DNA of 64,000 nucleotides from an uncultured bacterium (GTDB taxonomy: Bacteria; Patescibacteriota; JAHJAL01): assembly GCA_938004065.1 (NCBI GenBank), contig CALKWM010000041.1, forward strand, positions 26,889 through 90,888, written 5' to 3'. The translations under genes and the position numbers were made by a program. The notes below the pieces were generated by a model. The model searched no databases. It saw only the letters and a list, made by a program, of their open reading frames with translations, and had not been told where the DNA came from. Below are positions 2,942 through 53,802 of this stretch, in pieces. Every line of letters begins with the position of its first letter. Within the stretch, counting starts at the first letter, position 1.

Positions 2942-2969
2942 TATAAATTAATTATAAAAAACCAAAAAT

Positions 2970-19822: not shown

Positions 19823-20455
19823 ATGAAAACAAAAACAAAAAAAGCCACTACCACTTGCAAAAACAAACCACAGATTAAAAACTCTTTCAATCCAGAACAC
19901 TTAAAGTACTCCATCTGTGTTTCCGGTTCCGCCAATGCGGAAATTTGCGATGTTGATGCTGCCTCAAAAGTGGAAGAATTGGGACGTCAAATTGCCCTCC
20001 ACAACGCTTTCCTAATGACCGGAGCCACCACCGGCATGCCGGACTATGCTGCCAAAGGATGCCAAGACGCCGGCGGTATCAGTATCGGTGTCTCACCGGC
20101 CTACTCCAAACACGATCACGTTAATCGCTACAATCTCCCGCTCAAAAATTATGATCTCATCATGTACACCGGTTTTGGGTACTCCGGCAGAAATCTACTC
20201 CTAACCCGTATGGCCGACGCAGTAATAAATGTTTGCGGACGAATCGGCACTCTCAATGAATTTACCATTGCTTTCGAAGATAAAAAAATTATTGGAGTTC
20301 TGGAAGGTACCGGAGGGTTGGTCAATGAATTCAGAAAAATTGTCAACAAAGGATACCGTGGCCCGGGTAAAATAGTTTACGATCATGACCCTAAAAAATT
20401 GGTAGAAAAAGTAATTGCCCTGATTGCCGAAGAAAATAAATTCAAAAATAAATAA
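19823..20455 (+). CDS. LOG/SLOG-superfamily Rossmann-fold protein (TIGR00725-like, DprA/LOG-related)
   Basis: ICVSGSANAE … LMTGATTGMPDYAAKGCQDAGGISIGV … MYTGFGYSGRN … VINVCGRIGTLNEF matches the TIGR00725/LOG family pattern. Confidence 0.55.
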   Translation: MKTKTKKATTTCKNKPQIKNSFNPEHLKYSICVSGSANAEICDVDAASKVEELGRQIALHNAFLMTGATTGMPDYAAKGCQDAGGISIGVSPAYSKHDHVNRYNLPLKNYDLIMYTGFGYSGRNLLLTRMADAVINVCGRIGTLNEFTIAFEDKKIIGVLEGTGGLVNEFRKIVNKGYRGPGKIVYDHDPKKLVEKVIALIAEENKFKNK

Positions 20456-20588: not shown

Positions 20589-23500
20589 ATGAGAAAACTA
20601 TTCTCAAATCTTATCGACAAAATATCCAAAAACCAAACCTATGCTTTGGTATTTGGCTTAATACTATTTATTGCCATAGTAATTGGCATTCCATATCTCG
20701 ACTCAATTAATAAAAATCAGACACTTGAACTAAACCACCCATTGACAGAACGAATTGGCGATAACCACAAAATTTCAACTCCCACAGACGAAACAGATTA
20801 TACCGTTCCATCAGAAAACGACAGTACAATAACAGCCAAAACCGATACGGATGAAACGGTTATTTCTGATAATTCATCATCAACTGTTAGCAATCAAACC
20901 AATATTTCAAACCAACCCTCAAACGACAATGACACTAGTTATGCCATCATTGACATTTCCTCAAACATTATCTCTCCCGTGCAGGACACCGAACCAATAG
21001 TTATCAACGAAACCGCTCCTTGGGATGAGGGATACTATCAATACCAGGATGATACAATCGAAGTTAAATTTGGCGACAAAGACGAACAAAATCCAAAAGT
21101 TACATACAAGGCACCTATTTGGCAAGACATAAACGGCGAGTTATTTAATTCAGTTTCCAATTGGCTCGATCGCATCACCAACCGTAATATCAAATCAATC
21201 GAATTTTCTCTGGTTGATGCTTATGATTCCAGAACCCAATCAGAACCCAAAATTGATCTTCCAATTTCCGATTTTGAATCTAGTTTTTGGAATCAAATCA
21301 AAAATTTCTTTGTACGAATTTTCGAAGACAATCCAAACAACATCTTATTGTTCCAAGAAGATGGCCACGACATAATTTTAAACAAAAGTGTTCTAAAAAA
21401 TATCAATGTCAAATATCAGATTTTAAATAATCGAGGAATCAAAGAAGAAATAGTTATTGTAAATAGAGACGATCTAAAAAACTCATTTGTCTTCAGTCTA
21501 AAACTGGACAAAGGGATGAAGTATAATCGCAACCAGGAAATGGTTGTTGATGCGCCGGCCAATGTCTATTATTTCTATGACGAACAAAATCGATACATTG
21601 CCCATTTCGTGTCACTTTATGCCGAGGATCAGGCCGGCGCCAAGACGGAAAACGTTACCATGAAAATTAGCCAACTTTCCGATACGGATCACAAGATAAC
21701 TATCACCGTCGATCCTGAATGGCTTTATAGCTCAGAACGTAAATTCCCGATAATCATCGACCCATCGATCGTCCACGACACCCAGACTGAATTTGATACC
21801 GCCAAATCGTTAAATCGGGTTACTACCAACGCCAATCCGTCGATCGAACTGTCCGGACCCCCATACAAAAATTATGGAGTTTATACTTCTGATGTAATCG
21901 ACTTTGGCATAGCTGACCCAAATCTATACAATATGATCTGGACCGAAAACGGAGTGCAGACCGGCAGTGGCGAAACCGATTTAACCACTAATGGACTGGT
22001 AGCCAAATGGAATTTCAATGAAACTTCCGGTACAAGTGTCAGCGATTCCTCCGGTAACGGCCACACCGGCACGCTAACCAATATGACTACCACTGGGCAG
22101 GACGCCAGCGTCAATTCCGGCTGGACGGCTAACAATAAAAAGTGGGGGACTGGATCCGTGATGTTTGACGGTTCAAATGATTATATTGATGTTCCATCAT
22201 TTACTTTTAATGAAAATGGTATATTTGCAGTCTCATTTTGGATGAATCCTGTAAAAACCGGTACAAATCTGCATTATTTATTGGATTTTCGCAACGCTGA
22301 TGCTAACGGACAAAGCGCAGTTATCAGTTATGATCATAACAACACGGGCGCGATCGATTACACTATCTTTGGCGAATCCAATTGGCATAATGGTACCATT
22401 CCGTTAAATGAGAGATCGTGGAACCATGTCGTGGTTATTCACAACTCAAACTCTAACAATTTAAAAACATACATAAATGGTCAATTAGATCAAAATGTCA
22501 GCGTTAATGATTTTACGATAACCGGCTCTCCTTTGAGAATCGGAGCCAGGAGACTCACCGGCGCCGCTCCCTATAAAGGTTCTATTGATGCGATAAAAAT
22601 ATTCAACCGTGATCTGTCGGAAAATGAAATTATATCACTATATAACTCTACCAACATCGAATTCCAGACCCGCACCGGCTCCGACGATAATCCCTATAAT
22701 GGTGGATGGGAAGAATGGAAACCGGCCGGATCGGGCACCGAAACACAATTAGACAGCTTTGATAATCAATTTCTCTATCCCACCAGCGAAACCGGTTTGA
22801 CCAACTACTGGCCAATGGATGAATTGTCCGGTTCAAACGTTGACGAACCGGTTAATTCAGCTGACGGCACCGCCACCGGCACTAAAATCATTGACGGTAA
22901 GTACGCCAAAGCCCGTTATTTTAACGGGACAAGTGATTATCTTTCCGTAACCAATAGTTCGGTCCTAAATCCGGGCAACAATTTTACTATTGAAAGTTGG
23001 ATCTATCAGCCGACTATCAGTGACAATGGGGCGATTATTAGTACACTGGATATTACAAATGGAGTAGTAACCAAAGGTTATGCTTTCAAAACAAATACCA
23101 GCTCATTATATGGTTGGAGGGCCAATAGTCTGATGTTACAATTGGGTACTCCCACCTGGAACTGGGGATATTGGACATCCCCAACCAACAGTTTGACTGC
23201 CGGTCGCTGGCACCATGTGGCTGTAACCGTGGCCAATGCCAATACTGCATCTAAAACCGTCTATTTTTACATCGACGGCAAACAATACCCCGGCGCTTTT
23301 TGGACCAATAACAGTCAACAAGTGGTCAATTTTAACACCAACACCACATCCAGCCGAATCGGTGGAATATATACTGCCACCATGCCTTCTTACAATACAA
23401 CATATTTCAACGGCAATATTGACGAACTAAAAATTTACAGCGCCATACTAAGCGCTGATCAAATCAGTCAAAAATATTTGGAAGGAAAAGAATTATTTAA

Positions 23501-26500
23501 TCTCCAACCATGTATATATCAAACCAACGACTCCGATATTAAAGTTGAAGGTTCTTATTCATCCAGAAATTCCTTTGGTCATGCTATTACCAGCCAAAAT
23601 CTCGTCGCTCTCTGGCACTTGGACGAAACCGGCGGTAGTGGGGCTTATCTGAAAGACAGTTCCGGTAACAACAACCACGCCACCCCTTCGAGTTCGAACA
23701 ACAATATTGAAAATGGCATTACCGGTAAAGGCAGAAAAACGGTAAATGGCGGCAATATCACTATTCCCGATTCAACATCGTTACGACCAGCCGGCGCTTT
23801 TTCCTTTAATTTTTGGATTAAAACTAATGGTTTAAACTCTACCGCCCAATCATATTTCATCAACAAAGAAACCTGGTCGTCGAGTGGCTGGGCAATTATG
23901 GATAATGGTTCCTATACCAGTGATGTTATGTTCAGAGTTTTACCATCGGGTACCGGAACTTGTGGAACGGGTGTAGCATGTATGAGCCGTACCCTGGTAA
24001 ATGACAACAACTGGCATATGATTTCCGGTGTTTATAATGGCTCTAATATTTTTTTGTATCTCGACGGTGTCCAAAAAGACAGCCGTAGTGCCGGCAGTTT
24101 TACTACCAGCAATAACAATGTTTTAATAAATCAAACAAGCGGTAGCGCCAATGGCGTCCTGATGGATGAAATATCAATCCATGGTACTGCATTGAGTGTT
24201 GATGAAATCAACGAATTATACCGTCTCGGCCGTGATCATTATGTGAACAACAACATTGACTCAATTGATCTAAGTGATAGCTCTAAAATCGCTTTTTATA
24301 CCGCCTCCGATCAACCAGGCGAAAATTATGATTTAATTGTTGGCGAATCCACCTTTGCCAACTACCAAACTGACGCTAACACAATTGGTTTGTGGCATTT
24401 AAATGATAAAACAAACAATATTTTTGACTCAAGTGGATACTACAACAACGGAACAACTTCAGGGACTACGGCTGTGAATGCTTATTTAGATTATGGCAGA
24501 TCATTTAACGGAACTAGTGACTGGATCAATATCGACAGTGAGGCCGCCGACATGCCCACCACTACCAGTAACCTATCCGTTTCCGCTTGGGTAAAATGGG
24601 ATGATGCTCCAACCACTAATGAAGTTGTGATTAGTTATGGAGGCAATAACAGCGCCACGGGCTGGTTGTTGCAATACGAAACTACCGGAAAAATTCAGTT
24701 TTCCGTTCGTAATGCAAATTCTGTATCATCCGGTATTACACCTGTCGGCGGACACTGGTACCACCTCACCGGCACCTATGACCATTCCAATGTCAAACTC
24801 TATATCGACGGACAACTGGTAGGTAGTTCGCCGGCCACATCGAATATTATCACCGCCACTACTCTTCGTTTTGGCAATGAATACAATCGCAGTTATTATT
24901 TTGATGGTGTTCTTGATGAGATAAGAATTGACAAAATCGCCCGCACTCCCGAAGAAATTCGCCAGGCCTATGAAATCGGCAAACGAACTCATTCCATCAC
25001 TTTCGACTTCGCCGCCGGCTTGGATAGTGCCAATACCATCAGTGGCTCCGGCGACTATTCATTCACCGTCGACGCCACCACCAAAGGATTAGGAACCAAA
25101 GGCGAGGGATTATATGTCGGCGACAAAATTATTATCAAAGAAAACTATGACGGTACTGAATACATCGCCCAAGGTATCGTCGAAGCCGTCAATCAAACTA
25201 CCGGCGCCACTGTCGTTTCCGCCTGGGATGTCGGCTCTACTTTCCCGTCAGGCGGATTTACTCAATACGCCGATGCTTTCAAATGGCAGCGGGAATACTT
25301 TGATCTGACCGGAATTCTGGATGATCATCTGGAAACCACTCAACTGATCACCATCCGCAAAACCACCGGCACCTCCGGCAGCACCATCTGGCTGGACGAT
25401 TTAAATTCAATCGATAGTTATCTGACGGATCCACTGGGCAGTGAAATTAACTCAAGTGATAATCAATATCTACAGTATCGGGCGATATTTACCACGCAGG
25501 ATGAAAACATCACCCCGTCAATTTCCGATGTTACCATCAATTTCGATAACGCACCCGAACCGTCATTTGATTCCGCCGACACCTCCCAGTCATCCATCAA
25601 CCTCAACAACCAGAATGCTTTCAACGTCCAGTGTCAGAATGCCATGGTCTATGCTTCGGGACAAACGGTCACCTGTCAGGGATCATGGGATAACAGCAAT
25701 TGGAACACGGTGGTCAGTACCACTTCACCCGTTTCCGGCACCATTCAGGGTACTCCAGATATTACAACCTGGACCGGCTATCCCGCTGACGGTAACGTTA
25801 CCATATACGTCCGCATGCTGGTTGAATCCACTCCTTACGGACCGGAGACGTTCAGTGTCACCAAGGACACCGTCCGACCAACCATAAACTCGATAAATTC
25901 CGTCGCCGGCGATACATCCGACCCATATCTCGACCCTACTGATGATGGTTCGACAATAGTCAGTTTAAACACCACCGACGCGAGTACCTGCCGTTGGGAT
26001 GAAAGTGACACCGACTACGCCAGCATGAGCAATACCTGCAGTTCACCAACCAATTGTGACTTGGATATGACTGGTGAGGGAGGTCATATTGTTTATTTCC
26101 AATGTATTGATTCCTCATCCAATTCTACTGCTAATTCCTATGAATTAACATATTCACTCACTTACCTGGAAGACTGGGACGGCATTCCCTATGCTTCCGA
26201 CAACTGTCCGGAGACATATAATCCCAATCAATCAGACATGGATGGGGACACTAGCGGCGACGCCTGTGACCCGGAAACTCTAATAAGCGCCAATACCACC
26301 TGGCCCGCGGGAGAATATAATTTCAAATATTTACATGTGACAAATAACGCCACTCTCACTCTAAACTCTAACACCGGTTCACCCTTCCCCGGTGTCAGTA
26401 TTACTGGTGAAAACATCACCGTTGATAATGGATCAAAAATAAGTGCTGACCAAAAAGGTTACGGCAGTGCTCAAGGGCCCGGGGCCGGTGCAAATGGAAA

Positions 26501-29500
26501 CACCGTGTTGCAACCTGTCGGTGGTACCGGCGCTGATCATGGCAGTCGTGGCGGTAACGGCATCAATCATACCAATAACGATAATTCATATGGCAATGCT
26601 TATGAACCGACTACTTTGGGCAGTGGTGGTGGTAGTGAAGATTCCTTTCATAACACTTATGGTGGTCCTGGTGGTGGAGCCATCAAAATAAATATTTCTG
26701 GTATCCTGACAAATAACGGAATTATAAGCACCAACGCCGGCAATGCCATTTTTAGCGGTTACGGCATTCCACAAGGTAGCGGCGGCGGATCCGGCGGTAG
26801 TATCTGGATTATAACTAATACTATAAATGGTAATGGTAGTATCCAATCCAATGGTGGTGCGGCCACCACCGGCGCCAACTGCTCAAACTGTTACGGTGGC
26901 GGTGGTTCGGGCGGACGTATCAGTATCAATTTTTCTACAAGCAATTATGCTGGCGCAATTAAAGCCATGGGTGGTACCGGTCATCAGCAAGGAGAAGACG
27001 GCACAATTTCTTACAACGGCAACATGTCGAATTCGTGCGACACCGGCAATCCTTTTAGTCATTGTTATATTGATCAAATTCACCACTTACCGAACAATCT
27101 ATCCTACAAATACAATAATCTTACCATCGAATCAGGCGGTCAGATGGAGTTTAAAGATGATTATACCGGCACACTGGAGCCTGGCAATTTATCAATTGAG
27201 ACTGATGGTATGATTAAAATCGACAACTCAGCCGAAATTGATATCACCGGGGTCAATACTATTGATATAGATGGGGAAATATATCTCGAATCGGGCACAT
27301 CCGGAAATCATAGTGTTTTATCGCTCAGCGGTGATGATATTACCATCTCAGGTAATTCGGTCGAAGGCGAGCGCTGGTCGGAAATAAATATTCATGCTAA
27401 TGACGCTTTATTGGTGGATGGATTAGTCAAAGCTACCTGGATCGATATAACCGGCGACAATTTTAATATAACTTCAAGTGGACAAATTATAACCGACACA
27501 TTGGGACACCCCAGCACTTCCGGTCCCGGAGCCGGTTCGTATGGTAATTCCACCCTGGGACCGGTAGGCGCTACTGGCGCCGGTCATGGTGCTGTTGGTG
27601 GCGACGGCTATGATCATACTCCAGGCGGTTCCAGCTATGGCGATCAAAATGCCCCGGTTGATCTCGGTTCAGGTGGTGGTAGCCAAAACTCTTCTTATCC
27701 CGATTTTGGTGGTCCTGGTGGCGGCGCTTTAAAAATTAATTTAAATGGTACTTTAAACAATAACGGTCTTATCAGTAGTAATGCTAGCGATGCCATTTAC
27801 AGTGGTTATGGTTTTCCTCAAGGTTCCGGTGGTGGTTCCGGCGGTAGTATATGGATAATCTCTGACGCATTAAATGGTAGCGGTCAAATTGAAGCCGATG
27901 GCGGCGATGGTAACGATGGTATTAACGCTCCGGTAGCTTATGGTGGTTGCGGTTCCGGCGGCAGGATTAAAATTGAATATGTCACAAATAGTTTTACTGG
28001 CGATGTCACCGCCGACGGTGGCACGATCGGTCATGCCGTTCCTTGTTCAGCCGGTTCTATCGTCTACACTCAAAATTCTTCAAGTTTACCACGGGTTAAT
28101 TCGATCACTTCAGTTGCCGGTGATACATCTTTACCCTATGAAGACACTACGGATAACAGTCAAACGCTGGTTGAATTCACCACCTTAAACAGCCCAACCA
28201 ACGTCAAATGGGATACCATCGATACCAACTATGATTCCATGACCAATAGTTGTGGCAGTATTACTCAATGTTTGCTTGATCTATCCGGCAACGGTGTTAA
28301 AACCGTCTATTTCCGGGCCACCGATGGTTCCGGTAATAACTCGGCCTCCTCCTATGTTTTGCAATACACCATCAATGACACATCAGTTTCGGAGCCATTT
28401 GTCAGTGCTATTATCTCTGTGGCCGGTGATGACACCCCGCCATATGTCGATGTCAGCGATGACGAACACACAATGGTTAATTTTTCTACCATCAATAATT
28501 CAACCAATGTCAAATGGGATAACACTGACACCGACTACGATAGTATGTCCAATAGTTGTGACAGCATAACTGAATGTGACTTGAATCTTGCCGGCGACGG
28601 TATTCACGTTGTTTATTTCCGCGCCACTGATGGTTCAGGAAATAAATCGTCTTCTTCAACCCAACTACAATACACTATCCGACAAACAGAATATTCTAAT
28701 CAACTCAGTAGTTCATTTCCTTCCGAAAATGACTTAACTCTAACTGTTAGTTTTAAACCCAGTTTTTCTGAACCCATCACCGACGGCAGTATCAAACTAA
28801 TCATGGATGATGAATTTGACTTTAGCGGTTTGACTATCAATGATGTCTCCGCCAGTGGTGGCGATGTCACCTGGACCAATGACGAGCAGATCTATGCCGG
28901 TGGAATTCAAATCGCGAGATCAAATATTCCATTTGTAAGTATTGCTAAGGCTCAAGGAGAAAATTCCATTACCTTTAACTTCACCGGTGATATTTCTTCT
29001 GAAGATGGAGAGATAACTTTCATCATTGGTGGCTTAAATCAACCCGGTAATCCACCCACCGAAGGACCATATAGTTACATCCTCGAATGGTATGAAGAAA
29101 ATAACGCCGGTGGTTCACCTTTGTATATTCAGGACGGTAAAGTACATATCAATACCGGCACAACAGTTTCCGCTTCAGTACCGACTGCTTTTTCATTTAT
29201 CATCGATCCGGTTGGTACGGGCACCGTCAATGGCGCCAACATCACCACCTCCACCACAACCGGCAATACTGCCAATTTTGGAACATTCACTTCCGCCGAC
29301 GATCGCATTGCCGCCCATGACCTCATTGTCTCTACCAACTCGACCAGCGGTTACATTATCACTACTCAGTATTCCGGACTATTTTCTTCCGCTACTGACA
29401 ATATGAATAATTTTACCGGATCAAATACCGCACCAACCACCTGGACCACACCCCCCGGATCCGGAGTGGAAAGCTATTTTGCTTATACAACTAATGATTC

Positions 29501-29711
29501 TTCACTCTTGAATTCTTCAACAGACAGATTTACCTCTTCCGGTGGCAATAAATGGGCCTCCTTCGCTACCACTCCCTCCGAAGTGTCATATTCCAACACT
29601 GCCGTGATAGATGAAACCACCAGAGTAGGATACCGTCTGGAAATTACCAATCTGCAACCGGCCGGCATATATTCCACAAATGTCATGTATATCGCTACAC
29701 CAACATTCTAA
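20589..29711 (+). CDS. Giant (3040 aa) cell-surface multidomain protein. It has an N-terminal signal-anchor, 4-5 LamG/concanavalin-A-like lectin domains, one thrombospondin type-3 Ca-binding repeat, two ~348-aa Gly-rich beta-helix-like repeats, three ~95-aa Cys-containing Ig-like modules and a C-terminal ~190-aa domain shared with the next gene.
   Basis: Single uninterrupted ORF. LamG_3-type motifs (LVAKWNFNETSGTSVSDSSGNGHTGTL, GSIDAIKIFNRDLSENEI and paralogous copies). TSP3 repeat DWDGIPYASDNCPETYNPNQSDMDGDTSGDACDP. Duplicated GGPGGGA(I/L)KIN … SGGGSGGSIWII blocks. Three …SVAGDTSxPYxD…KWDxxDTDYxSMxNSCxSxTxC…VYF… modules. Confidence 0.85.
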   Translation: MRKLFSNLIDKISKNQTYALVFGLILFIAIVIGIPYLDSINKNQTLELNHPLTERIGDNHKISTPTDETDYTVPSENDSTITAKTDTDETVISDNSSSTVSNQTNISNQPSNDNDTSYAIIDISSNIISPVQDTEPIVINETAPWDEGYYQYQDDTIEVKFGDKDEQNPKVTYKAPIWQDINGELFNSVSNWLDRITNRNIKSIEFSLVDAYDSRTQSEPKIDLPISDFESSFWNQIKNFFVRIFEDNPNNILLFQEDGHDIILNKSVLKNINVKYQILNNRGIKEEIVIVNRDDLKNSFVFSLKLDKGMKYNRNQEMVVDAPANVYYFYDEQNRYIAHFVSLYAEDQAGAKTENVTMKISQLSDTDHKITITVDPEWLYSSERKFPIIIDPSIVHDTQTEFDTAKSLNRVTTNANPSIELSGPPYKNYGVYTSDVIDFGIADPNLYNMIWTENGVQTGSGETDLTTNGLVAKWNFNETSGTSVSDSSGNGHTGTLTNMTTTGQDASVNSGWTANNKKWGTGSVMFDGSNDYIDVPSFTFNENGIFAVSFWMNPVKTGTNLHYLLDFRNADANGQSAVISYDHNNTGAIDYTIFGESNWHNGTIPLNERSWNHVVVIHNSNSNNLKTYINGQLDQNVSVNDFTITGSPLRIGARRLTGAAPYKGSIDAIKIFNRDLSENEIISLYNSTNIEFQTRTGSDDNPYNGGWEEWKPAGSGTETQLDSFDNQFLYPTSETGLTNYWPMDELSGSNVDEPVNSADGTATGTKIIDGKYAKARYFNGTSDYLSVTNSSVLNPGNNFTIESWIYQPTISDNGAIISTLDITNGVVTKGYAFKTNTSSLYGWRANSLMLQLGTPTWNWGYWTSPTNSLTAGRWHHVAVTVANANTASKTVYFYIDGKQYPGAFWTNNSQQVVNFNTNTTSSRIGGIYTATMPSYNTTYFNGNIDELKIYSAILSADQISQKYLEGKELFNLQPCIYQTNDSDIKVEGSYSSRNSFGHAITSQNLVALWHLDETGGSGAYLKDSSGNNNHATPSSSNNNIENGITGKGRKTVNGGNITIPDSTSLRPAGAFSFNFWIKTNGLNSTAQSYFINKETWSSSGWAIMDNGSYTSDVMFRVLPSGTGTCGTGVACMSRTLVNDNNWHMISGVYNGSNIFLYLDGVQKDSRSAGSFTTSNNNVLINQTSGSANGVLMDEISIHGTALSVDEINELYRLGRDHYVNNNIDSIDLSDSSKIAFYTASDQPGENYDLIVGESTFANYQTDANTIGLWHLNDKTNNIFDSSGYYNNGTTSGTTAVNAYLDYGRSFNGTSDWINIDSEAADMPTTTSNLSVSAWVKWDDAPTTNEVVISYGGNNSATGWLLQYETTGKIQFSVRNANSVSSGITPVGGHWYHLTGTYDHSNVKLYIDGQLVGSSPATSNIITATTLRFGNEYNRSYYFDGVLDEIRIDKIARTPEEIRQAYEIGKRTHSITFDFAAGLDSANTISGSGDYSFTVDATTKGLGTKGEGLYVGDKIIIKENYDGTEYIAQGIVEAVNQTTGATVVSAWDVGSTFPSGGFTQYADAFKWQREYFDLTGILDDHLETTQLITIRKTTGTSGSTIWLDDLNSIDSYLTDPLGSEINSSDNQYLQYRAIFTTQDENITPSISDVTINFDNAPEPSFDSADTSQSSINLNNQNAFNVQCQNAMVYASGQTVTCQGSWDNSNWNTVVSTTSPVSGTIQGTPDITTWTGYPADGNVTIYVRMLVESTPYGPETFSVTKDTVRPTINSINSVAGDTSDPYLDPTDDGSTIVSLNTTDASTCRWDESDTDYASMSNTCSSPTNCDLDMTGEGGHIVYFQCIDSSSNSTANSYELTYSLTYLEDWDGIPYASDNCPETYNPNQSDMDGDTSGDACDPETLISANTTWPAGEYNFKYLHVTNNATLTLNSNTGSPFPGVSITGENITVDNGSKISADQKGYGSAQGPGAGANGNTVLQPVGGTGADHGSRGGNGINHTNNDNSYGNAYEPTTLGSGGGSEDSFHNTYGGPGGGAIKINISGILTNNGIISTNAGNAIFSGYGIPQGSGGGSGGSIWIITNTINGNGSIQSNGGAATTGANCSNCYGGGGSGGRISINFSTSNYAGAIKAMGGTGHQQGEDGTISYNGNMSNSCDTGNPFSHCYIDQIHHLPNNLSYKYNNLTIESGGQMEFKDDYTGTLEPGNLSIETDGMIKIDNSAEIDITGVNTIDIDGEIYLESGTSGNHSVLSLSGDDITISGNSVEGERWSEINIHANDALLVDGLVKATWIDITGDNFNITSSGQIITDTLGHPSTSGPGAGSYGNSTLGPVGATGAGHGAVGGDGYDHTPGGSSYGDQNAPVDLGSGGGSQNSSYPDFGGPGGGALKINLNGTLNNNGLISSNASDAIYSGYGFPQGSGGGSGGSIWIISDALNGSGQIEADGGDGNDGINAPVAYGGCGSGGRIKIEYVTNSFTGDVTADGGTIGHAVPCSAGSIVYTQNSSSLPRVNSITSVAGDTSLPYEDTTDNSQTLVEFTTLNSPTNVKWDTIDTNYDSMTNSCGSITQCLLDLSGNGVKTVYFRATDGSGNNSASSYVLQYTINDTSVSEPFVSAIISVAGDDTPPYVDVSDDEHTMVNFSTINNSTNVKWDNTDTDYDSMSNSCDSITECDLNLAGDGIHVVYFRATDGSGNKSSSSTQLQYTIRQTEYSNQLSSSFPSENDLTLTVSFKPSFSEPITDGSIKLIMDDEFDFSGLTINDVSASGGDVTWTNDEQIYAGGIQIARSNIPFVSIAKAQGENSITFNFTGDISSEDGEITFIIGGLNQPGNPPTEGPYSYILEWYEENNAGGSPLYIQDGKVHINTGTTVSASVPTAFSFIIDPVGTGTVNGANITTSTTTGNTANFGTFTSADDRIAAHDLIVSTNSTSGYIITTQYSGLFSSATDNMNNFTGSNTAPTTWTTPPGSGVESYFAYTTNDSSLLNSSTDRFTSSGGNKWASFATTPSEVSYSNTAVIDETTRVGYRLEITNLQPAGIYSTNVMYIATPTF

Positions 29712-30063
29712 CGAGCAATTTTCAAGTTCTAAGTTTTAAGTATCAAGTAAAACACAATACATAAAGCACAATATCTCAATATTTCAATATCTAATTTTTA
29801 TTCAAATGAAAACAAAAATCAAAAACATCAAGCATGCACAGATGATGACAATTATGCTCATCTCCATCTTCACCATCCTGCTCAACAATCTGGGCAACAT
29901 GTATTAAACTCTATAATATTTACCAAAAAATTTATTAACAAAAACAAAAATGAAAAAAATTCTGTCCTTTCTAGCCAATTTATTTGACAACAACGGCATG
30001 TCGATGATTTGCAAAAAAGAACTTGGATTCACAATCCGCAAAGTAAAATAATTCTTTACTTCC

Positions 30064-30747
30064 ATGACAAATCGGTATCACAAATACTTTTCGATTCTGT
30101 TAATTTCGTTGCTCACTACAACAACCTATTTGTCAATTCAAAAACACTCTCATGCTCAAACACTAACCGAGACTAGAAACACAACCATTACCGTCTCCAT
30201 CCCGCAACATCTTACTTTTATTATCAATGGAGTCAACACCGGCGACCCCTGTCCCAATGCCAGTGTCGCCGAACTCGCCGAAATTGATTCTACGGCTACT
30301 GATATCGATTATGGCACATTCAACGGCGCCAATCGAAAAATCGCCTGCCAGGAAACTATCGTTACCACCAACGCCGCATCCGGCTACCGTCTCACAATCC
30401 AACAAGACCATCCGATTCAATCATCACCCACAGTACAGATTAGTAATTTCCAGGGTTCATCCGGCTCCGCCGACACCTGGACCACACCGGAAACCTGGTC
30501 TTCACCAACCGCCACTCATCATTCATACTTTGGATTTTCCACCAGTGACACCATCGATTACTCCAGGTTCTCACTAAATCGTTACGGCAGTTTTCAATCG
30601 GACGCAACCGAGCACGAAATCGCCTCCGCCCCCGGACCGGTTATCGACGACACCAACCACATCTCCTTTCAACTCGAAACCGACGACCTCCAAGCTTCCG
30701 GTAATTACTCAAATACTGTTACCTATATTGTTACTGCTTATTTTTAG
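30064..30747 (+). CDS. Secreted protein: a signal peptide followed by the same ~190-aa C-terminal domain found at the end of the giant protein
   Basis: Signal peptide MTNRYHKYFSILLISLLTTTTYLSIQKHSHAQT. Four blocks match the giant's C-terminus, for example DYGTFNGANRKIACQETIVTTNAASGYRLTIQ vs NFGTFTSADDRIAAHDLIVSTNSTSGYIITTQ. Both proteins carry TWTTP and a terminal …Y(I/V)xTxxF. Confidence 0.7.
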   Translation: MTNRYHKYFSILLISLLTTTTYLSIQKHSHAQTLTETRNTTITVSIPQHLTFIINGVNTGDPCPNASVAELAEIDSTATDIDYGTFNGANRKIACQETIVTTNAASGYRLTIQQDHPIQSSPTVQISNFQGSSGSADTWTTPETWSSPTATHHSYFGFSTSDTIDYSRFSLNRYGSFQSDATEHEIASAPGPVIDDTNHISFQLETDDLQASGNYSNTVTYIVTAYF

Positions 30748-36349: not shown

Positions 36350-37663
36350 ATGAAAAAATCATCACTACTCCCACTAGTATTAGTTTTTGCTTTTTCTTTT
36401 TTTGTCCCAAATTTAAATTTTGAAGCAAAAAAAGCAGTAGCATCTGACAACAAAGTTATTGATATTTCGATCAATGACCAACAGATGACAATTGTGGAAA
36501 ACAACATGGCTATCAAAAAATTTGCCATTTCTACCGGCAAATGGGATATGCCCACACCACTTGGCACTTTTTACATCCAAAACCATATCTACGACGCTTA
36601 CTCACAACCCTATGATCTGTATATGCCATATTGGATGGGAATTGGCGGTGGCTACGGCATACACGGTTTGCCATATTGGAAATACAGTTGGGGCAATGTG
36701 TATGAAGGCGTTAACCATCTGGGCATTAGAGTAAGTCATGGTTGCATCCGATTATCAGTTGACAACGCCGCCTGGTTATACGATTGGGCTCCCAATGGAA
36801 CCAGAGTGGTCATTCATCAAGAATCCGGAACCCAGGTTGCCATCACTCCACCAGATTACGACGGTGTGATAACCGCCCAATCAGCACAAAATATCACACT
36901 CAGACCCGGGGAATCAACCGAGGTTTGGGTCAAACTCAAAAACACCGGGAAGCATTGGTGGTACAACGTTGGTGATCACCCAATTCATTTGGCAACCTAC
37001 AAAGACGCTGATCGCGTGTCTGATTTTGGAAACTCTAGCTGGCTTACTTTCAATCGACCAGCCATTATCGACAATACCGGGGTTGGATATGGCCAGGAAG
37101 CAACTTTTAAATTTACTATTACCGCTCCCACCAAACAAATGCAATACGAAGAACACTTCAAGCCGGTTGCTGAAGGTCATTCCTGGTTTTTTGATCCTGA
37201 TTTGGATATCGTCTGGTACATCAATGTTTATCAACCCGAATACTCCAATCAATGGTTCAGCCAATCCGACTGGCCCATCATCACCGCCGGAGATACCAAG
37301 ACCCTCGCTTTTAAATTCAAAAACATGGGCTATGCCACCTGGTACAATAGTGGATCAAATCCCATCCGCTTGGCCACCAGCAATCCGATCGACCGCAGTA
37401 GCGTATTTTTCAATCCCGCTTCTTGGCTTTCCTCAAACCGCGCCACCGCCATGGATGAAGCCCAAGTATTGCCCGGTGAGATTGGTACATTTACTTTCAC
37501 CGTAAAAGCACCGCTAAGTCCCGGTACCTATGACGAGTATTTCCGATTGGTTGCCGAAAACAAAACTTGGATGGAAGATCAAGGTGTATTTTTACGCATC
37601 AAAGTAGTTCAAAATCCTGATCTATCAACAACATACAGTAGCGAAACCGATCTAACCAAATAG
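36350..37663 (+). CDS. Secreted L,D-transpeptidase (YkuD domain) with C-terminal repeated beta-rich domains
   Basis: Signal peptide. YkuD catalytic motif GIHGLPY … GIRVSHGCIRLSVDNAAWLYDW. The C-terminal ~300 aa contains three paralogous ~100-aa repeats (…WYN.G..PI.LAT…F…SWL…). Confidence 0.85.
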   Translation: MKKSSLLPLVLVFAFSFFVPNLNFEAKKAVASDNKVIDISINDQQMTIVENNMAIKKFAISTGKWDMPTPLGTFYIQNHIYDAYSQPYDLYMPYWMGIGGGYGIHGLPYWKYSWGNVYEGVNHLGIRVSHGCIRLSVDNAAWLYDWAPNGTRVVIHQESGTQVAITPPDYDGVITAQSAQNITLRPGESTEVWVKLKNTGKHWWYNVGDHPIHLATYKDADRVSDFGNSSWLTFNRPAIIDNTGVGYGQEATFKFTITAPTKQMQYEEHFKPVAEGHSWFFDPDLDIVWYINVYQPEYSNQWFSQSDWPIITAGDTKTLAFKFKNMGYATWYNSGSNPIRLATSNPIDRSSVFFNPASWLSSNRATAMDEAQVLPGEIGTFTFTVKAPLSPGTYDEYFRLVAENKTWMEDQGVFLRIKVVQNPDLSTTYSSETDLTK

Positions 37664-50823: not shown

Positions 50824-53802
50824 CTAAACCTCATCACCATCTATGTCTTCAAATACCTCACCGTCCGTACCGATAACTATCTCACCCATATTGGAAAACT
50901 TTGAGTTTTTACTATTTTGGATACTCTTGGTATCACCCACACCTTTATTGCTCGCCTTGAGTGTTTTATTGACATTTTTAACATCATTTTGCATATCTTT
51001 ACTCTGCTTCAATTTCGCTAATTTTGCCTTGACATAATCTGCTTTTTGAATAGATTGTTCGTCTTTAATCACTTTTGGCATTACATCAACTTTCTTCTTT
51101 TTGGGTGGTTTTATGTAAACTTTTTTTTCAACGGTTTTATTATTAAATTTTTGAGAATCCTTAACAACATTGCTAACTGCTTTTTTCACATCTACATTTT
51201 CATTTTCGCTTTTGATAACATTTGTATCAGACTTCTTTTGCTGAAACTTTTTCAATTTTTCAATCAAACTACTCTGCTTTTTTATCTGTTCTTCGTTCAT
51301 TACTTCCGGTTTAGTGTTTTCAACTGGAAATCGTCCCCTACCCCCTCGGCGATTGCCTTTTTGTTGCTTTTCTATCATTTCTCCTTCGACTTTTCGTTTA
51401 TCCAACGATTCCGCCCATTCATTTAGTTTTTTTTCAACAAAACTCCTCTGTGTACCATATCTTTCTCTGGAAACACGTTGAATTTTTTCTTTGTTTCCCG
51501 TCTTTTTTTCGGGCAAATCCAAAGTGGTGGCACTAAATGGCGCTGAAGAAATACCGTCAATAGTCATCCGTAAATAGATCTGAAATCTTTCCAAATTTAC
51601 CAAATCCTCATTGGTAAAAGTCGGCGCAAACTCTTTGGCCAGGTGATCAGCATCGTTAGCTCCCACACGAAATGATACGAGTGTACCTACGTTACCAAAA
51701 ATTGCTTCTCGCACACTATCCTCCATCTGAGCAATATATTGATTGGCTACATGAAGGTTCAGATTGTATTTTCTCGCTTCGGACAAAATAGCCGCAAAAC
51801 TCTCGGTAGCAAAGTTTTGAAATTCATCAACGTACAAATTGAAAGGTACACGTTCACTCTTGGGAATATCTTGACGACTCATAGCCGCCAACTGAATCTT
51901 GGTCACCATCGTGGCACCCAACAAAGCTGAATTATCTTCACCCACAATACCTTTTGATACTTTTACCAAAAATATTTTACTCTCATCCATTATTTGTCTG
52001 ATATTCATGGAACTCGTTGGCTGTCCAATCATATTGCGAATAGTTGCACTGGCCAGAAATTGACCAACTTTATTTTGGATAGGCATCACCGCTTCCTGCC
52101 TGATTTTATCGGGGTATCCTTCAAATTCAGTCATCCAGAAATCCCTGACAACCGGATCTTTCACTTTTTTCAAAACCTCTTCACGATAAAATTTATCTGT
52201 TAACAATCGGGGCACACCCAAAAAAGTACTACCCGGATAATCCAGAAGTGCCAAAAACGTGTATCGTAATATATGCTCCAATCGAGGCCCCCATGAATCA
52301 GCAAAAAGTTTTTTGAAAATCCCAACCAATCCCGAAGTTACAATCGGTTTGTAATCATCTTCAACTTGTTCCAACAAATTGAACGCCATTGGGTTTTCTT
52401 TGTCTCCCGGATCAAACAATATCACGTCATTTACTCGACTTTTCGGAACGTACTCTAAAATAGTATCAACAAAATCTCCATGCGGATCAACCACTGCCAC
52501 TCCCCGACCTTTGTAAATGTCATCGATAACCATGTTTTGCAACAAAGATGTTTTACCCATACCGGTCTTACCAACTATATATGTGTGATAAGATCTGTCT
52601 CCTATCTTTAAACCAAATTTATTCTCCAAACCCCTAAAATTTGTTTGCCCAAAGATAGTTAAATCTTCCTTGGGGGTATTCATCAATGTTGGTAAATTAC
52701 TTGGCGGTTCAGCCGTTTTGGCAGTTGACCAAACTATAGCCGGTGTTTCTACCGATATACTTGGCAAATGATACAAACTAGCCAATTCTTTTACGTTTAA
52801 AACATACCCCCTGCCCCAGAAACTTCTCTTGATATAGGCATTGATATCTGATTTTTGATTTATATTTACCGTTTTACAATAAAAACCGTTGATATTGCTG
52901 GCATTATATTGTTTAAAAGTACTGACAATGGAATTCATTTTGCTTTTAGCATCATTAGTATCATCAGCAAAGCAAATTACTCTGATTTTTGTCTCATAGC
53001 CCAATTTGGTAGTCTTTTCACCGATCGCTTTGATTGCCTCCTCCTCTTGCACGGTTAAAACCTTTTTTGTTCCGGCCGCTTCTTCCGTTTTAGCACCCGA
53101 AGTCAATAAATGTGTAATTATTATCGACAGAAAATGCCAAAAAGAGCCAAATATTCCCATAGAATGGTATTCGCCTCTGATTTTTTGTACTTGTTGTTTA
53201 GATTTCTCCATCCACTTGTTATCCGTCGGACGTACCAAAATTTGCACCCAAATCTGATTATTCAAGTCACCCATTTTACTCAAAACCGCCGTCACACCGG
53301 CCAACGGATCAACTTCAAATGTATCAAAAGTTCTAATTGGAAATGCTTCACTTTTTTCCAATTCGATTTCACAACTACTAAAATTACGATTCAATCCATC
53401 GTATTCCTGGGTATAATCATCCACTCTTTCAATAAGTAAAGTTGGATATTGAGCATACATCTGACCTTCCAAAAACTCGATTATCTGTTCCGGAGCGGTT
53501 GCATAAAACTTGATATATTTACTGGAAGAGACAACTTCAAAACTGATATGTTCTTGCAAGCTACCCTCGACAAAACGATCCCACTTTTTACGATAGATAC
53601 CATGCAAACTGGCGAACATTTGTTCGGCCGAGAGAGCTGTCTTCTCGTTATTTTTCGGCACTTTCAACAACAACGTAACCATCTTCTGTTTCGAAAGCCA
53701 ATTACGATAACGCCGACTCTGCACAGCTAAAAATATCAGATAGATTACACCTACCCATACCGCCAAAAGCAGCAAAAATATCCCAAAATAATAGATAAAC
53801 AT
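50824..53802 (-). CDS. Membrane-anchored P-loop ATPase of the FtsK/HerA/TrwB (VirD4-type coupling protein, DUF87) superfamily. It has an extra ~380-aa N-terminal domain and a ~230-aa Lys-rich disordered C-terminal tail ending in an acidic tip.
   Basis: N-terminal TM helix. Walker A YIVGKTGMGKTSLLQNMV followed by VAVVDPHGDF (compare TrwB IVDPNGDM and HerA DPHGEY). Walker B region NLYVDEFQNF … HVANQYIAQM. The tail is K/E/N-rich and ends GTDGEVFEDIDGDEV. Confidence 0.7.
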   Translation of the reverse strand: MFIYYFGIFLLLLAVWVGVIYLIFLAVQSRRYRNWLSKQKMVTLLLKVPKNNEKTALSAEQMFASLHGIYRKKWDRFVEGSLQEHISFEVVSSSKYIKFYATAPEQIIEFLEGQMYAQYPTLLIERVDDYTQEYDGLNRNFSSCEIELEKSEAFPIRTFDTFEVDPLAGVTAVLSKMGDLNNQIWVQILVRPTDNKWMEKSKQQVQKIRGEYHSMGIFGSFWHFLSIIITHLLTSGAKTEEAAGTKKVLTVQEEEAIKAIGEKTTKLGYETKIRVICFADDTNDAKSKMNSIVSTFKQYNASNINGFYCKTVNINQKSDINAYIKRSFWGRGYVLNVKELASLYHLPSISVETPAIVWSTAKTAEPPSNLPTLMNTPKEDLTIFGQTNFRGLENKFGLKIGDRSYHTYIVGKTGMGKTSLLQNMVIDDIYKGRGVAVVDPHGDFVDTILEYVPKSRVNDVILFDPGDKENPMAFNLLEQVEDDYKPIVTSGLVGIFKKLFADSWGPRLEHILRYTFLALLDYPGSTFLGVPRLLTDKFYREEVLKKVKDPVVRDFWMTEFEGYPDKIRQEAVMPIQNKVGQFLASATIRNMIGQPTSSMNIRQIMDESKIFLVKVSKGIVGEDNSALLGATMVTKIQLAAMSRQDIPKSERVPFNLYVDEFQNFATESFAAILSEARKYNLNLHVANQYIAQMEDSVREAIFGNVGTLVSFRVGANDADHLAKEFAPTFTNEDLVNLERFQIYLRMTIDGISSAPFSATTLDLPEKKTGNKEKIQRVSRERYGTQRSFVEKKLNEWAESLDKRKVEGEMIEKQQKGNRRGGRGRFPVENTKPEVMNEEQIKKQSSLIEKLKKFQQKKSDTNVIKSENENVDVKKAVSNVVKDSQKFNNKTVEKKVYIKPPKKKKVDVMPKVIKDEQSIQKADYVKAKLAKLKQSKDMQNDVKNVNKTLKASNKGVGDTKSIQNSKNSKFSNMGEIVIGTDGEVFEDIDGDEV

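What the first reader, a model, noticed from the sequence alone, without database searches (positions are those of the whole stretch)
29140..30747. The giant protein and the adjacent 227-aa secreted protein share a ~190-aa C-terminal domain, a WxL-like big + small surface-protein pair
Direct comparison shows four collinear conserved blocks between the last ~190 aa of the giant ORF and residues 40-227 of the next gene: TTVSASVPTAFSFIIDPVGTG / TTITVSIPQHLTFIINGVNTG; NFGTFTSADDRIAAHDLIVSTNSTSGYIITTQ / DYGTFNGANRKIACQETIVTTNAASGYRLTIQ; TTWTTP…SYFAYTTND / DTWTTP…SYFGFSTSD; and RLEITNLQPAGIYSTNVMYIATPTF / QLETDDLQASGNYSNTVTYIVTAYF. One very large and one small signal-peptide protein sharing a C-terminal module in one locus is the same architecture as Firmicutes WxL/Csc clusters, where the shared domain mediates non-covalent cell-wall attachment and complex formation. 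The TW(T/S)xP motif loosely resembles the WxL signature. This may be an undescribed cell-surface anchoring or docking system.
Basis: partly seen in the sequence, partly recalled or inferred. Interest (0 to 1): 0.7.

Follow-up and report, generated by a model that had tools for sequence, protein, structure and literature searches.

The report
Giant adhesin carrying a pilin module
A 3,040-aa surface protein and its 227-aa neighbour share the strand-accepting C-terminal domain of the recently described Pam pili of ultra-small CPR bacteria, so the pair most likely forms a giant tip adhesin with its own minimal pilin, and the system's accessory protein turns out to be related to the WxL-interacting proteins of Firmicutes.

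Summary
In detail: the giant's last ~190 aa and residues 40-227 of the next gene are homologous (BLASTP E=1e-26, 34% identity).

The domain is not a WxL domain. Neither window protein and none of 68 family members scanned hits Pfam PF13731, and the dual Trp-x-Leu motif is absent.

It is a divergent clade of the C-terminal, donor-strand-accepting domain of CPR "Pam" pilins. NCBIfam NF058581 is the only credible hit, but it stays below the curated cutoff. The family has 2,618 cluster representatives. AlphaFold models resemble donor-strand-exchange filament subunits.

The giant ends in a complete pilin module: a nine-strand N-terminal domain, a linker and the C-terminal domain. The small protein is a signal peptide plus linker plus C-terminal domain.

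In 59 of 67 related genome loci, carriers are interleaved with a membrane-anchored accessory family (F1, PamC/D-type). Large carriers followed by a smaller carrier recur, and the window's cassette is syntenic in other genomes.

Unexpectedly, F1 is homologous to Firmicutes WxL-interacting proteins (DUF916).

No chaperone gene lies within about 84 kb of the pair. The assembly order is inferred.

The parts
20589..29711 (+). Giant carrier gene (3,040 aa): N-terminal hydrophobic signal or anchor, adhesin-like body, C-terminal complete pilin module
   Evidence: ORF and translation. Pfam finds 4 Laminin_G_3 stretches (E=3.6e-82). NCBIfam finds TafC-like, OmpL47-type Ig and AgmC-like regions. Orthologous giants P0123, P0124, P0132, P0137 and P0142 have the same architecture.
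20628..20699 (+). N-terminal hydrophobic segment of the giant (about residues 14-37): Sec signal peptide or signal anchor
   Evidence: Hydropathy scan. Orthologue P0132 has a classical cleavable signal peptide, '...FTAQA|AVE'. Cleavage in the window protein is not established.
21999..24959 (+). Lectin-like region of the giant (about residues 471-1457): concanavalin-A/LamG-type domains, the presumed ligand-binding part
   Evidence: Pfam PF13385 with 4 stretches, best at 1307-1457. PF02210 at 1132-1174. NCBIfam TafC-like at 471-688.
28683..29150 (+). Pilin N-terminal domain of the giant (residues 2699-2854): nine-strand beta-sandwich
29151..29189 (+). Linker of the giant (residues 2855-2867, NTGTTVSASVPTA): putative donor strand
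   Evidence: Conserved alternating-hydrophobic segment across the family. It has no beta partner in the monomer model. Its role as donor strand is inferred from the PamA/B cryo-EM description.
29190..29708 (+). C-terminal domain (CTD) of the giant (residues 2868-3040): Pam-pilin-like strand-acceptor domain ending ...ATPTF-COOH
   Evidence: BLASTP to the small protein, E=1e-26. NF058581 at 30.4 bits over profile positions 2-148 of 148. Profile search.
29806..29907 (+). Conserved micro-ORF 1 (33 aa, hydrophobic) in the spacer
   Evidence: Called as a gene in the source record. Conserved at protein level in L072/L073, with many synonymous differences. Function unknown.
29950..30051 (+). Conserved micro-ORF 2 (33 aa, basic) ending 13 nt upstream of the small carrier gene
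   Evidence: Function unknown.
30064..30747 (+). Small carrier gene (227 aa): signal peptide, then linker, then CTD, with no N-terminal pilin domain
   Evidence: Translation. The full-length pilin HMM matches only positions 173-364, at residues 35-227 (127 bits). The AF2 model has pLDDT 88.8 and pTM 0.78.
30064..30156 (+). Predicted signal peptide of the small protein (residues 1-31, ...SHA|QT)
   Evidence: Read from the sequence (positive N-region, hydrophobic core, AXA-like site). Low pLDDT in the model. No signal-peptide predictor was available.
30157..30210 (+). N-terminal extension of the mature small protein (residues 32-49, including TTITVSIP): linker-homologous putative donor strand
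   Evidence: Aligns with the family's linker. Unpaired in the monomer model.
30211..30744 (+). CTD of the small protein (residues 50-227), with a clade-specific Cys63/Cys95 pair, ending ...VTAYF-COOH

Best explanation
The two genes are a satellite cassette of a Pam-type pilus system of a CPR (Patescibacteria) bacterium. Pam pili are fibres built by donor-strand exchange with the help of membrane-anchored chaperones.

Shown here:
- The shared ~190-aa module belongs to a very large family (2,618 cluster representatives) that is overwhelmingly CPR by record title. Its only credible curated relative is the Pam pilin C-terminal domain.
- The module lies at the extreme C-terminus in nearly all carriers.
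- It folds like donor-strand-exchange filament subunits.
- Carriers sit in operons with PamC/D-type (F1) and PamR-type genes.
- The giant ends in a whole pilin module (nine-strand NTD, linker, CTD).
- The small protein is a minimal pilin (linker plus CTD).

Inferred:
- The giant is exported by Sec. Its lectin-rich ~2,700-aa body is the host- or prey-binding part.
- Its C-terminal pilin module lets it be built into a fibre by strand exchange, like FimH or PapG at the tip of chaperone-usher pili.
- The small protein, encoded immediately downstream, donates its N-terminal strand into the giant's CTD groove and accepts the next subunit's strand in its own groove. It would thus be the giant's dedicated adaptor or shaft subunit.
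- Chaperones and the membrane anchor are supplied in trans from a core operon elsewhere in the genome.
For: Homology of the pair.

Curated relative: NF058581 'Pam pilus system pilin subunit' is the sole credible hit for both window proteins. The alignment covers nearly the whole profile and reaches the last residue (22.6 and 30.4 bits). It is also the sole credible hit for most of the ~38 relatives scanned (13-46 bits; two relatives gave no hit, and ten divergent carriers also hit the PamT model).

Family size and position: 2,618 representatives, and the module is C-terminal in 127 of 134 carriers in genome loci.

Complete pilin module in the giant. The nine-strand NTD matches the PamA/B description.

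Operon context: 59 of 67 genome loci carry F1 (signal peptide plus C-terminal TM) interleaved with carriers. Locus L042 contains a bona fide Pam pilin (150 bits, cutoff 55) and a bona fide PamR (387 bits, cutoff 300) flanking an F1 gene. The same locus has a second operon: 2,099-aa giant carrier, F1, 389-aa carrier, F1, PamR-like protein.

Large-then-smaller carrier order: seen for 7 of 8 large carriers.

Conserved synteny of the window cassette: SLOG gene, large carrier, small NTD-less carrier in L075 (3,039 + 222 aa) and L072 (798 + 227 aa).

NTD-less carriers can be an operon's only CTD-bearing subunit (L074).

The cryo-EM basis for donor-strand exchange in Pam pili is in bioRxiv 10.64898/2026.03.03.709456.
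Against: - Both window proteins and all members of their clade score below NF058581's curated cutoff. Membership is remote homology, not curated assignment.
- No F1 chaperone, PamR or ordinary pilin lies in the window or within ~10 kb beyond each end. The rest of the genome could not be examined.
- No model coordinates or multimer prediction were available. Which strand is donated, and the order of giant and small subunits, are untested.
- The giant's N-terminal hydrophobic segment lacks an obvious cleavage site, so it could remain membrane-anchored.
- The Pam study itself is a preprint. Chaperone function there rests on structure prediction.
Confidence: 0.58

Rival explanations
1. WxL-like non-covalent anchoring. 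The shared C-terminal domain binds the cell wall and/or a WxLIP-type membrane protein. It holds the giant adhesin on the cell surface, with the small protein as a stabilising partner, and no fibre is formed.
For: The grammar matches WxL clusters: a small domain-only protein, a large protein with the C-terminal domain plus N-terminal adhesin domains, and a two-Ig-domain accessory protein with a C-terminal TM helix (PMC9772566 and PMC10599100). F1 is homologous to WxLIP/DUF916. The WxLIP strand is predicted to complete the WxL sandwich.
Against: There is no PF13731 hit (0 of 68) and no dual W-x-L motif. No peptidoglycan-binding fold was matched. The nearest curated relatives are subunits seen as filaments by cryo-EM. 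No F1/WxLIP gene lies near the pair. Most carriers are ~360-aa two-domain proteins in tandem arrays, which fits polymer subunits better than wall anchors.
Confidence: 0.15
2. A self-contained two-protein surface complex without a pilus. The giant stays anchored in the membrane by its uncleaved N-terminal helix. The small protein simply caps or complements the giant's distal C-terminal pilin module in a one-to-one strand complementation, stabilising the tip of a fibrillar adhesin.
For: The giant's N-terminal segment looks more like a signal anchor than a cleavable signal peptide. The cassette is conserved without any adjacent chaperone in the window, L004, L072 and L075. TasA-type fibres show that strand complementation can occur without a dedicated chaperone (established knowledge; top structural hits 8aur and 9ikk).
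Against: Orthologue P0132 has a classical cleavable signal peptide. In other genomes large carriers sit inside full operons with F1 and PamR-like genes. The small protein keeps both a donor-like strand and an acceptor domain, which is more than a cap needs. PamT-type caps are a different class.
Confidence: 0.15
3. The small protein is an independent minimal pilin that forms its own thin fibre. Its position next to the giant reflects only a local duplication of the pilin module, with no physical partnership.
For: In L074 an NTD-less 215-aa carrier is the only CTD-bearing subunit of a complete operon. The two CTDs are only 34% identical.
Against: The large-then-small adjacency is conserved across genomes in which the small proteins are only 54-74% identical. 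It also parallels the large-then-pilin order in 7 of 8 other loci. No terminator is predicted in the spacer, and in L075 the two genes are 3 nt apart.
Confidence: 0.08

Closest known systems
Pam pili of CPR bacteria (PamA/PamB/PamE pilins, PamT tip, PamC/PamD chaperones, PamR anchor; Troman et al., bioRxiv 10.64898/2026.03.03.709456; NCBIfam NF058578, NF058579, NF058581)
   Same: Restricted to CPR by nearly all informative record titles. [quoted passage not shown] The giant has the nine-strand NTD, linker and CTD architecture. Family members sit in operons with F1 (PamC/D-type, C-terminal TM) and PamR-type genes, sometimes next to ATP synthase genes (L076). NF058581 is the only credible curated hit.
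   Different: All members of this clade are below the curated cutoff. The giant fuses ~2,700 aa of lectin and Ig modules in front of the pilin module, and the preprint does not mention adhesins or giant proteins. The small protein lacks the NTD but keeps the linker, so it is neither a PamA/B-type pilin nor a PamT orthologue. The cassette lies away from any chaperone gene.
WxL / Csc clusters of Firmicutes (small WxL, large WxL, WxLIP = DUF916 + DUF3324 + TM)
   Same: One small domain-only protein and one large protein with the same C-terminal domain behind adhesin modules. The accessory protein has two Ig-like domains and a C-terminal TM helix, and it is detectably homologous to F1 (PF06030 in 33 of 36 members; PDB 9i25_C, E=2.7e-4). 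An accessory strand is predicted to complete the carrier's sandwich.
   Different: The carriers do not match PF13731 and lack the dual W-x-L motif. No LPxTG partner was seen. WxL proteins are described as peptidoglycan-bound, not filament-forming. The window has no WxLIP/F1 gene.
Chaperone-usher two-domain tip adhesins and adaptors (FimH with FimG/FimF; PapG with PapF/PapK)
   Same: An N-terminal lectin part plus a C-terminal pilin domain that accepts a donor strand. The adaptor subunit genes lie next to the adhesin gene. The fold neighbours include the PapG, FimH, CupB6 and CsuE pilin domains and FimG, FimF and PapK.
   Different: There is no outer membrane or usher. The donor strand would be an internal linker rather than an N-terminal extension in two-domain subunits. 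The adhesin is ten times larger. There is no detectable sequence homology.
TasA / TasA-like (TLP) and archaeal donor-strand fibres
   Different: There is no sequence relationship, the accessory proteins differ, and no giant fusions are known to me.

Membership tests
WxL domain (Pfam PF13731) | Match to the PF13731 profile | tested here: not met
   No hit for either window protein at E<=1. 0 of 68 family members hit at E<=10, subject to HMMER's filters.
WxL domain (Pfam PF13731) | Two conserved Trp-x-Leu motifs on adjacent strands (PMC9772566) | tested here: not met
   The tryptophans in the two window domains are followed by TT, AS or SS. 0 of 267 family members have two or more W-x-L in their last 200 aa.
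WxL domain (Pfam PF13731) | [quoted passage not shown] | tested here: met
WxL domain (Pfam PF13731) | A WxLIP (DUF916/DUF3324/TM) gene in the same cluster | tested here: not met
   No F1/WxLIP-like ORF in the window or within ~10 kb beyond each end. It is met at family level in other genomes: F1 in 59 of 67 loci, and PF06030 hits in 33 of 36 F1 members.
WxL domain (Pfam PF13731) | Peptidoglycan binding | not testable with these tools
   No wall-binding fold appears among the structural neighbours, but binding itself needs an experiment.
Pam pilin C-terminal domain (NCBIfam NF058581) | Score at or above the curated cutoff of 55 bits | tested here: not met
   22.6 bits (small) and 30.4 bits (giant), E=9e-5 and 3.5e-7. 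The alignment covers profile positions 2/3-148 of 148 and ends at the C-terminus. A true positive for comparison is L042:18056-19105(-) at 150 bits.
Pam pilin C-terminal domain (NCBIfam NF058581) | Truncated Ig-like / open-barrel fold of donor-strand-accepting subunits | tested here: inconclusive
   The models are confident. Their neighbours are mostly donor-strand-exchange subunits, but at weak scores. The Pam coordinates are not in the PDB copy and model coordinates could not be inspected.
Pam pilin C-terminal domain (NCBIfam NF058581) | NTD (nine-strand sandwich), then linker strand, then CTD | tested here: met
   Met for the giant. The small protein lacks the NTD.
Pam pilin C-terminal domain (NCBIfam NF058581) | Encoded in an operon with PamC/D chaperones and PamR | tested here: not met
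   Not met in the window. Met for the family elsewhere.
Pam pilin C-terminal domain (NCBIfam NF058581) | Restricted to CPR bacteria | tested here: inconclusive
   Record titles name many CPR lineages: Patescibacteria, Roizmanbacteria, WWE3, Saccharibacteria, Microgenomates, Paceibacteria and others. About 35 TPA MAGs are titled Gammaproteobacteria or Pseudomonadales, and single loci are titled Methylomirabilota and Acidimicrobiales. These labels were not verified.
PamT tip pilin (NCBIfam NF058579) | Match to the PamT model (241 positions, cutoff 240 bits) | tested here: not met
   The small protein gives no PamT hit at E<=1. Other short carriers (L065, L067, L069) do match PamT end to end at 29-38 bits, so the small protein belongs to a different class that retains the linker.
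Chaperone-usher pilins (Fim/Pap type) | Sequence family membership, and assembly by a periplasmic chaperone plus an outer-membrane usher | tested here: not met
   No Pfam fimbrial family hit. No usher-like gene was found in the loci. There is only a resemblance of fold and mechanism.

The most novel reading that the evidence does not exclude
CPR Pam pili and the Firmicutes WxL/Csc clusters are two branches of one ancient monoderm surface-assembly system. In this system a membrane-anchored two-Ig-domain protein (PamC/D = WxLIP/DUF916-DUF3324) complements and hands over incomplete C-terminal sandwich domains. The conserved design would be a 'large adhesin + small domain-only partner'. The window's giant/small cassette would then be the CPR counterpart of a large/small WxL pair. 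WxL proteins would be expected to assemble by strand exchange rather than merely stick to peptidoglycan.
Probability: 0.35. Interest if true: 0.8.

Novelty: new variant of a known kind. Interest (0 to 1): 0.6.

Why it matters
CPR bacteria make up a large share of bacterial diversity and live attached to host cells, but how they recognise hosts is largely unknown. The Pam pilus preprint leaves open what contacts the host.

Giant lectin-rich proteins that end in a complete Pam-type pilin module are concrete candidates for the host-recognition tip of these fibres. They recur: at least 19 of the best 150 family representatives exceed 1,000 aa, and the largest is 6,399 aa. The conserved giant-plus-minimal-pilin cassette gives a defined two-protein system to test.

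Separately, the detectable homology between the Pam accessory proteins and the WxL-interacting proteins of enterococci, listeriae and lactobacilli links a CPR pilus to a virulence-associated but mechanistically unclear Gram-positive surface system. It suggests a testable mechanism, strand complementation, for both.

Tried and rejected
- Pfam and NCBIfam scans for WxL or any wall-binding family on both proteins and on 68 relatives found nothing for WxL.
- The small protein and the carrier profile against PDB sequences found nothing meaningful. The Pam cryo-EM chains are evidently not in the copy.
- I looked for Pam accessory genes in the window (envelope-type ORFs against NCBIfam, six-frame HMM scans for F1, F2, F3, F4, F6, F8 and F13) and in ~10 kb beyond each end. 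None was found. The best F1 candidate, ORF 36350-37663, scores only 14 bits and looks L,D-transpeptidase-like.
- F1 against NCBIfam gave no PamC/D model hit. A single F1 member against Pfam gave no hit, so the WxLIP link appeared only when 36 members and a profile were used.
- The AFDB50 fold search, meant to look for annotated WxL-domain neighbours, was unavailable because the library is not installed.
- The small protein as a PamT orthologue is rejected.
- A linker-fused 'pseudo-multimer' AF2 run was considered but not attempted.
Full report
**1. The observation**

The window holds a 3,040-aa ORF (20589-29711, +) followed 352 bp downstream by a 227-aa ORF (30064-30747, +). BLASTP of the giant's C-terminus against the small protein gives one collinear alignment: giant ~2858-3040 against small 40-227, 34% identity and 54% positives over 195 columns, E=1e-26.

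**2. What the shared domain is not**

Pfam gives no hit for the domain in either protein, and in particular no WxL (PF13731). When 68 family members were scanned one by one at E<=10, none touched PF13731.

The WxL domain is defined by two conserved Trp-x-Leu motifs on adjacent strands (PMC9772566). The tryptophans in the two window domains are followed by TT, AS or SS. None of 267 family members has two W-x-L motifs in its last 200 residues. Membership of the WxL domain family was therefore tested and not met.

**3. What it is**

*Curated relative.* NCBIfam returns a single family for both proteins: NF058581, 'Pam pilus system pilin subunit' (CPR_Pam_pilin_C). The alignment covers essentially the whole 148-position profile and ends at the last residue, but at 22.6 and 30.4 bits against a curated cutoff of 55.

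*The Pam system.* It was described in 2026 (bioRxiv 10.64898/2026.03.03.709456). Cryo-EM of filaments from the CPR bacterium Ca. Mycosynbacter amalyticus showed two pilins, PamA and PamB. [quoted passage not shown] This is donor-strand exchange. The operon also encodes PamT (a single-domain tip subunit), PamC and PamD (PapD/FimC-like chaperones with a C-terminal TM helix) and PamR (an anchor).

*Size and shape of the family.* Database searches found over 110 relatives, mostly 350-390-aa proteins with CPR source names. An exhaustive profile search found 2,618 cluster representatives at E<=1e-3 and 1,453 at E<=1e-10. The module ends at the C-terminus in essentially every listed protein, and in 127 of 134 carriers in the genome loci. 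260 of 267 members end in Tyr or Phe, typically '...ATPT[YF]'. For most of the ~38 relatives scanned, NF058581 is the sole credible family, always below cutoff at 13-46 bits. Two relatives gave no hit, and ten divergent carriers also hit the PamT model. This is therefore a divergent sister clade of the curated Pam pilin domain.

**4. Fold**

An AF2 model of the small protein is confident (pLDDT 88.8, pTM 0.78).

- Foldseek against the PDB gives weak E-values (2e-3 or worse). The list is nevertheless almost entirely donor-strand-exchange subunits: TasA fibre, CS20, FimA/F/G/I, the PapG pilin domain (probability 1.0), PapA, the CupB6 and CsuE tip adhesins, Csu, Caf1, EcpA and an archaeal thread.

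No wall-binding fold appears in either list.

**5. Architecture of the two proteins**

*The giant.* A profile of 88 full-length two-domain relatives aligns positions 35-364 (the whole mature pilin) to giant residues 2699-3040 at 218 bits, including the N-terminal 'LS(D/S)S(R/F)PS' motif. The AF2 model of the giant's last 351 residues (pLDDT 87.7) shows two domains. The first is a nine-strand sandwich (2699-2854), matching the strand count reported for PamA/B. The second is a CTD with the same strand pattern as the small protein. Upstream, the giant has an N-terminal hydrophobic segment, four LamG/ConA-type lectin domains (E=3.6e-82), OmpL47-type Ig modules, Gly-rich repeats and a thrombospondin-type motif.

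*The small protein.* It matches only profile positions 173-364. It therefore consists of a signal peptide, the linker-homologous segment and the CTD, with no NTD.

*The putative donor strand.* In both models the conserved, alternating-hydrophobic segment just before the first CTD strand has no beta partner in the monomer (giant TTVSASVP, small TTITVSIP). That is what one expects of a strand destined for a neighbour's groove. This is an inference, because coordinates could not be inspected.

*Not a PamT orthologue.* The small protein gives no NF058579 hit. A different class of 238-260-aa carriers does match PamT end to end.

**6. Genomic context of the family**

A scan of species-representative genomes returned 67 loci. 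Most informative record titles name CPR lineages.

- *Tandem arrays.* 48 of the 67 loci hold two to four carriers.
- *The accessory family F1.* 59 of the 67 loci hold members of one accessory family, F1. F1 is about 310-320 aa, with an N-terminal signal peptide and a C-terminal TM helix, and it is interleaved with the carriers.
- *F1 is PamC/D-type.* Locus L042 anchors this. Its minus-strand operon contains a bona fide Pam pilin (NF058581, 150 bits) and a bona fide PamR (NF058578, 387 bits, cutoff 300) flanking an F1 gene. Its plus-strand operon reads: 2,099-aa giant carrier, F1, 389-aa carrier, F1, PamR-like protein (95 bits, E=3e-27).
- *Large then smaller carrier.* Seven of eight large carriers in these loci are followed on the same strand by a smaller carrier within 0.26-4.4 kb.
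- *Giants are common.* At least 19 of the 150 best family representatives exceed 1,000 aa, and the largest is 6,399 aa. Five that I read are orthologues of the window giant with the same C-terminal pilin module. One of them begins with a classical cleavable signal peptide.

**7. The window's cassette**

The source is GCA_036848155.1, contig DAIUKQ010000003.1.

- *Conserved synteny.* L075 has PfkB, SLOG, a 3,039-aa giant, a 222-aa NTD-less carrier (P0073, 54% identical to the window's small protein), then DinB on the minus strand, a histidine kinase and a LytTR regulator. This is the window's own gene order. L072 has SLOG, a 798-aa carrier, a micro-ORF and a 227-aa carrier.
- *No accessory genes nearby.* The window and ~10 kb beyond each end contain no F1, no PamR-type gene and no other carrier. 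The closest relatives, L003 and L004, also lack F1.
- *Transcription.* No terminator is predicted in the spacer.
- *NTD-less carriers can be shaft subunits.* In L074 a 215-aa NTD-less carrier is the only CTD-bearing subunit of a complete operon: F1, carrier, F1, F4, F6.

**8. The WxL connection**

F1 as a single sequence has no Pfam or NCBIfam hit. Two broader tests changed this.

- Of 36 F1 members scanned, 33 hit PF06030, 'WxL Interacting Protein, peptidoglycan binding domain' (formerly DUF916), with best E=6.6e-12.
- The F1 profile's best PDB matches are E. faecium WxLIP1 (9i25_C and 9i1y_A, E~3e-4). The alignment is collinear over both Ig-like domains. The fimbrial chaperone EcpB follows at E=0.04.

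The WxL literature describes the same grammar: a small domain-only WxL protein, a large protein with a C-terminal WxL domain behind adhesin modules, and WxLIP with a C-terminal TM helix. [quoted passage not shown]

The Pam preprint does not mention WxL, DUF916, adhesins or giant proteins. No paper in the held library combines WxL with donor strand and pili, and the one paper holding DUF916, chaperone and pilus together is an E. faecalis genomics study unrelated to this idea.

**9. Most likely mechanism**

*Shown.* The pair shares a Pam-type pilin CTD. The giant carries a full pilin module behind a lectin-rich body. The small protein is a linker-plus-CTD minimal pilin. The family lives in Pam-type operons. 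The cassette is conserved.

*Inferred.* The giant is a fibre-borne tip adhesin, functionally like FimH or PapG. The small protein is its dedicated adaptor or shaft subunit, joined by donor-strand exchange. Chaperones and the anchor act in trans.

I put about 0.85 on the domain identity and about 0.55-0.6 on the tip-adhesin-plus-minimal-pilin mechanism as a whole. The rivals are WxL-type wall anchoring, a chaperone-free one-to-one capped surface adhesin anchored by the giant's N-terminus, and functional independence of the two genes. None is excluded, but each fits less of the evidence.

**10. Verdict**

This is a real and well-supported feature. The kind of system is known (Pam pili, 2026). 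This clade is sub-threshold for the curated model. The preprint does not describe the giant-adhesin fusion with a conserved NTD-less partner, or the Pam-WxLIP homology. I rate it a new variant of a known kind, interest 0.6.

Noticed in passing
window 29806-29907 and 29950-30051 (+): Two 33-aa micro-ORFs lie in the spacer between the giant and small genes. One is hydrophobic (MKTKIKNIKHAQMMTIMLISIFTILLNNLGNMY) and one is basic (MKKILSFLANLFDNNGMSMICKKELGFTIRKVK). Both are conserved at protein level in the orthologous cassette of L072/L073, with many synonymous differences. They look like real genes of unknown function inside the cassette.
   Followed up: partly
L024:11644-13661, L074:11685-13718, L029, L042, L076 (3' ends of Pam-like operons): Many operons end with family F4 (Ig domains plus a dockerin-like tail; some members are PamR-like with a C-terminal TM) followed by F6 (an N-terminal TM protein with a cohesin domain, PF00963). 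This suggests a cohesin-dockerin type membrane tether for the fibre.
   Followed up: partly
L051:12941-14701, L052:14147-15958, L054:15155-16867, L064:8115-9986; also L074:5403-8981: Proteins of 570-623 aa (and one of 1,192 aa) match the pilin NTD and linker but have no CTD. They would be donor-only subunits, possibly terminators or anchors, or alternative tips.
   Followed up: no
L005:14699-18061, L027:15462-19445, L009 and 23 other loci (family F3): Large (~1,100-2,350 aa) signal-peptide proteins with a conserved 'INFQGKV...G.Y.F.F.(I/L)Y' N-terminus accompany the operons in 26 loci. They are probably the 'tail fibre-like protein' noted in the Pam preprint's neighbourhood network.
   Followed up: no
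L005-L015, L017, L019, L020, L022, L026-L028, L030, L032, L033, L035, L037, L040, L046, L059, L065, L068 (record titles): About 35 TPA metagenome-assembled genomes titled 'uncultured Gammaproteobacteria' or 'Pseudomonadales' carry the same CPR-type operons as the Roizmanbacteria and Microgenomates loci. The labels look like submitter placeholders or errors. Single loci are titled Methylomirabilota (L036) and Acidimicrobiales (L066). None of this was verified.
   Followed up: no
window 30250-30252 and 30346-30348 (Cys63 and Cys95 of the small protein): A Cys pair is conserved in the small-carrier clade (P0002-P0004, P0073) but absent from the giant's CTD. It may be a stabilising disulfide like those reported in PamA/B.
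   Followed up: no
window 19823-20455 (+), and L072:380-1042, L075:156-773: A SLOG/LOG-family gene (PF18306 LDcluster4, E=1.1e-33) sits immediately upstream of the large carrier in all three syntenic cassettes. No functional link is evident.
   Followed up: no
window 50824-53802 (-): A 992-aa membrane-anchored TraD/TrwB-type coupling ATPase (DUF8128) lies among housekeeping genes. It is possibly part of the CPR type IV secretion or competence machinery.
   Followed up: no
L071:2483-5281 and L070:2604-6488 (beyond the window ends): The same contig holds further large surface proteins: a 932-aa CLIPPER (DUF11)-repeat protein and a 1,294-aa protein. Neither carries the pilin module.
   Followed up: partly
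L076:3452-8176: A short carrier followed by three F1 paralogues lies directly downstream of the ATP synthase operon. This reproduces the pam/ATP-synthase adjacency reported in the preprint.
   Followed up: no
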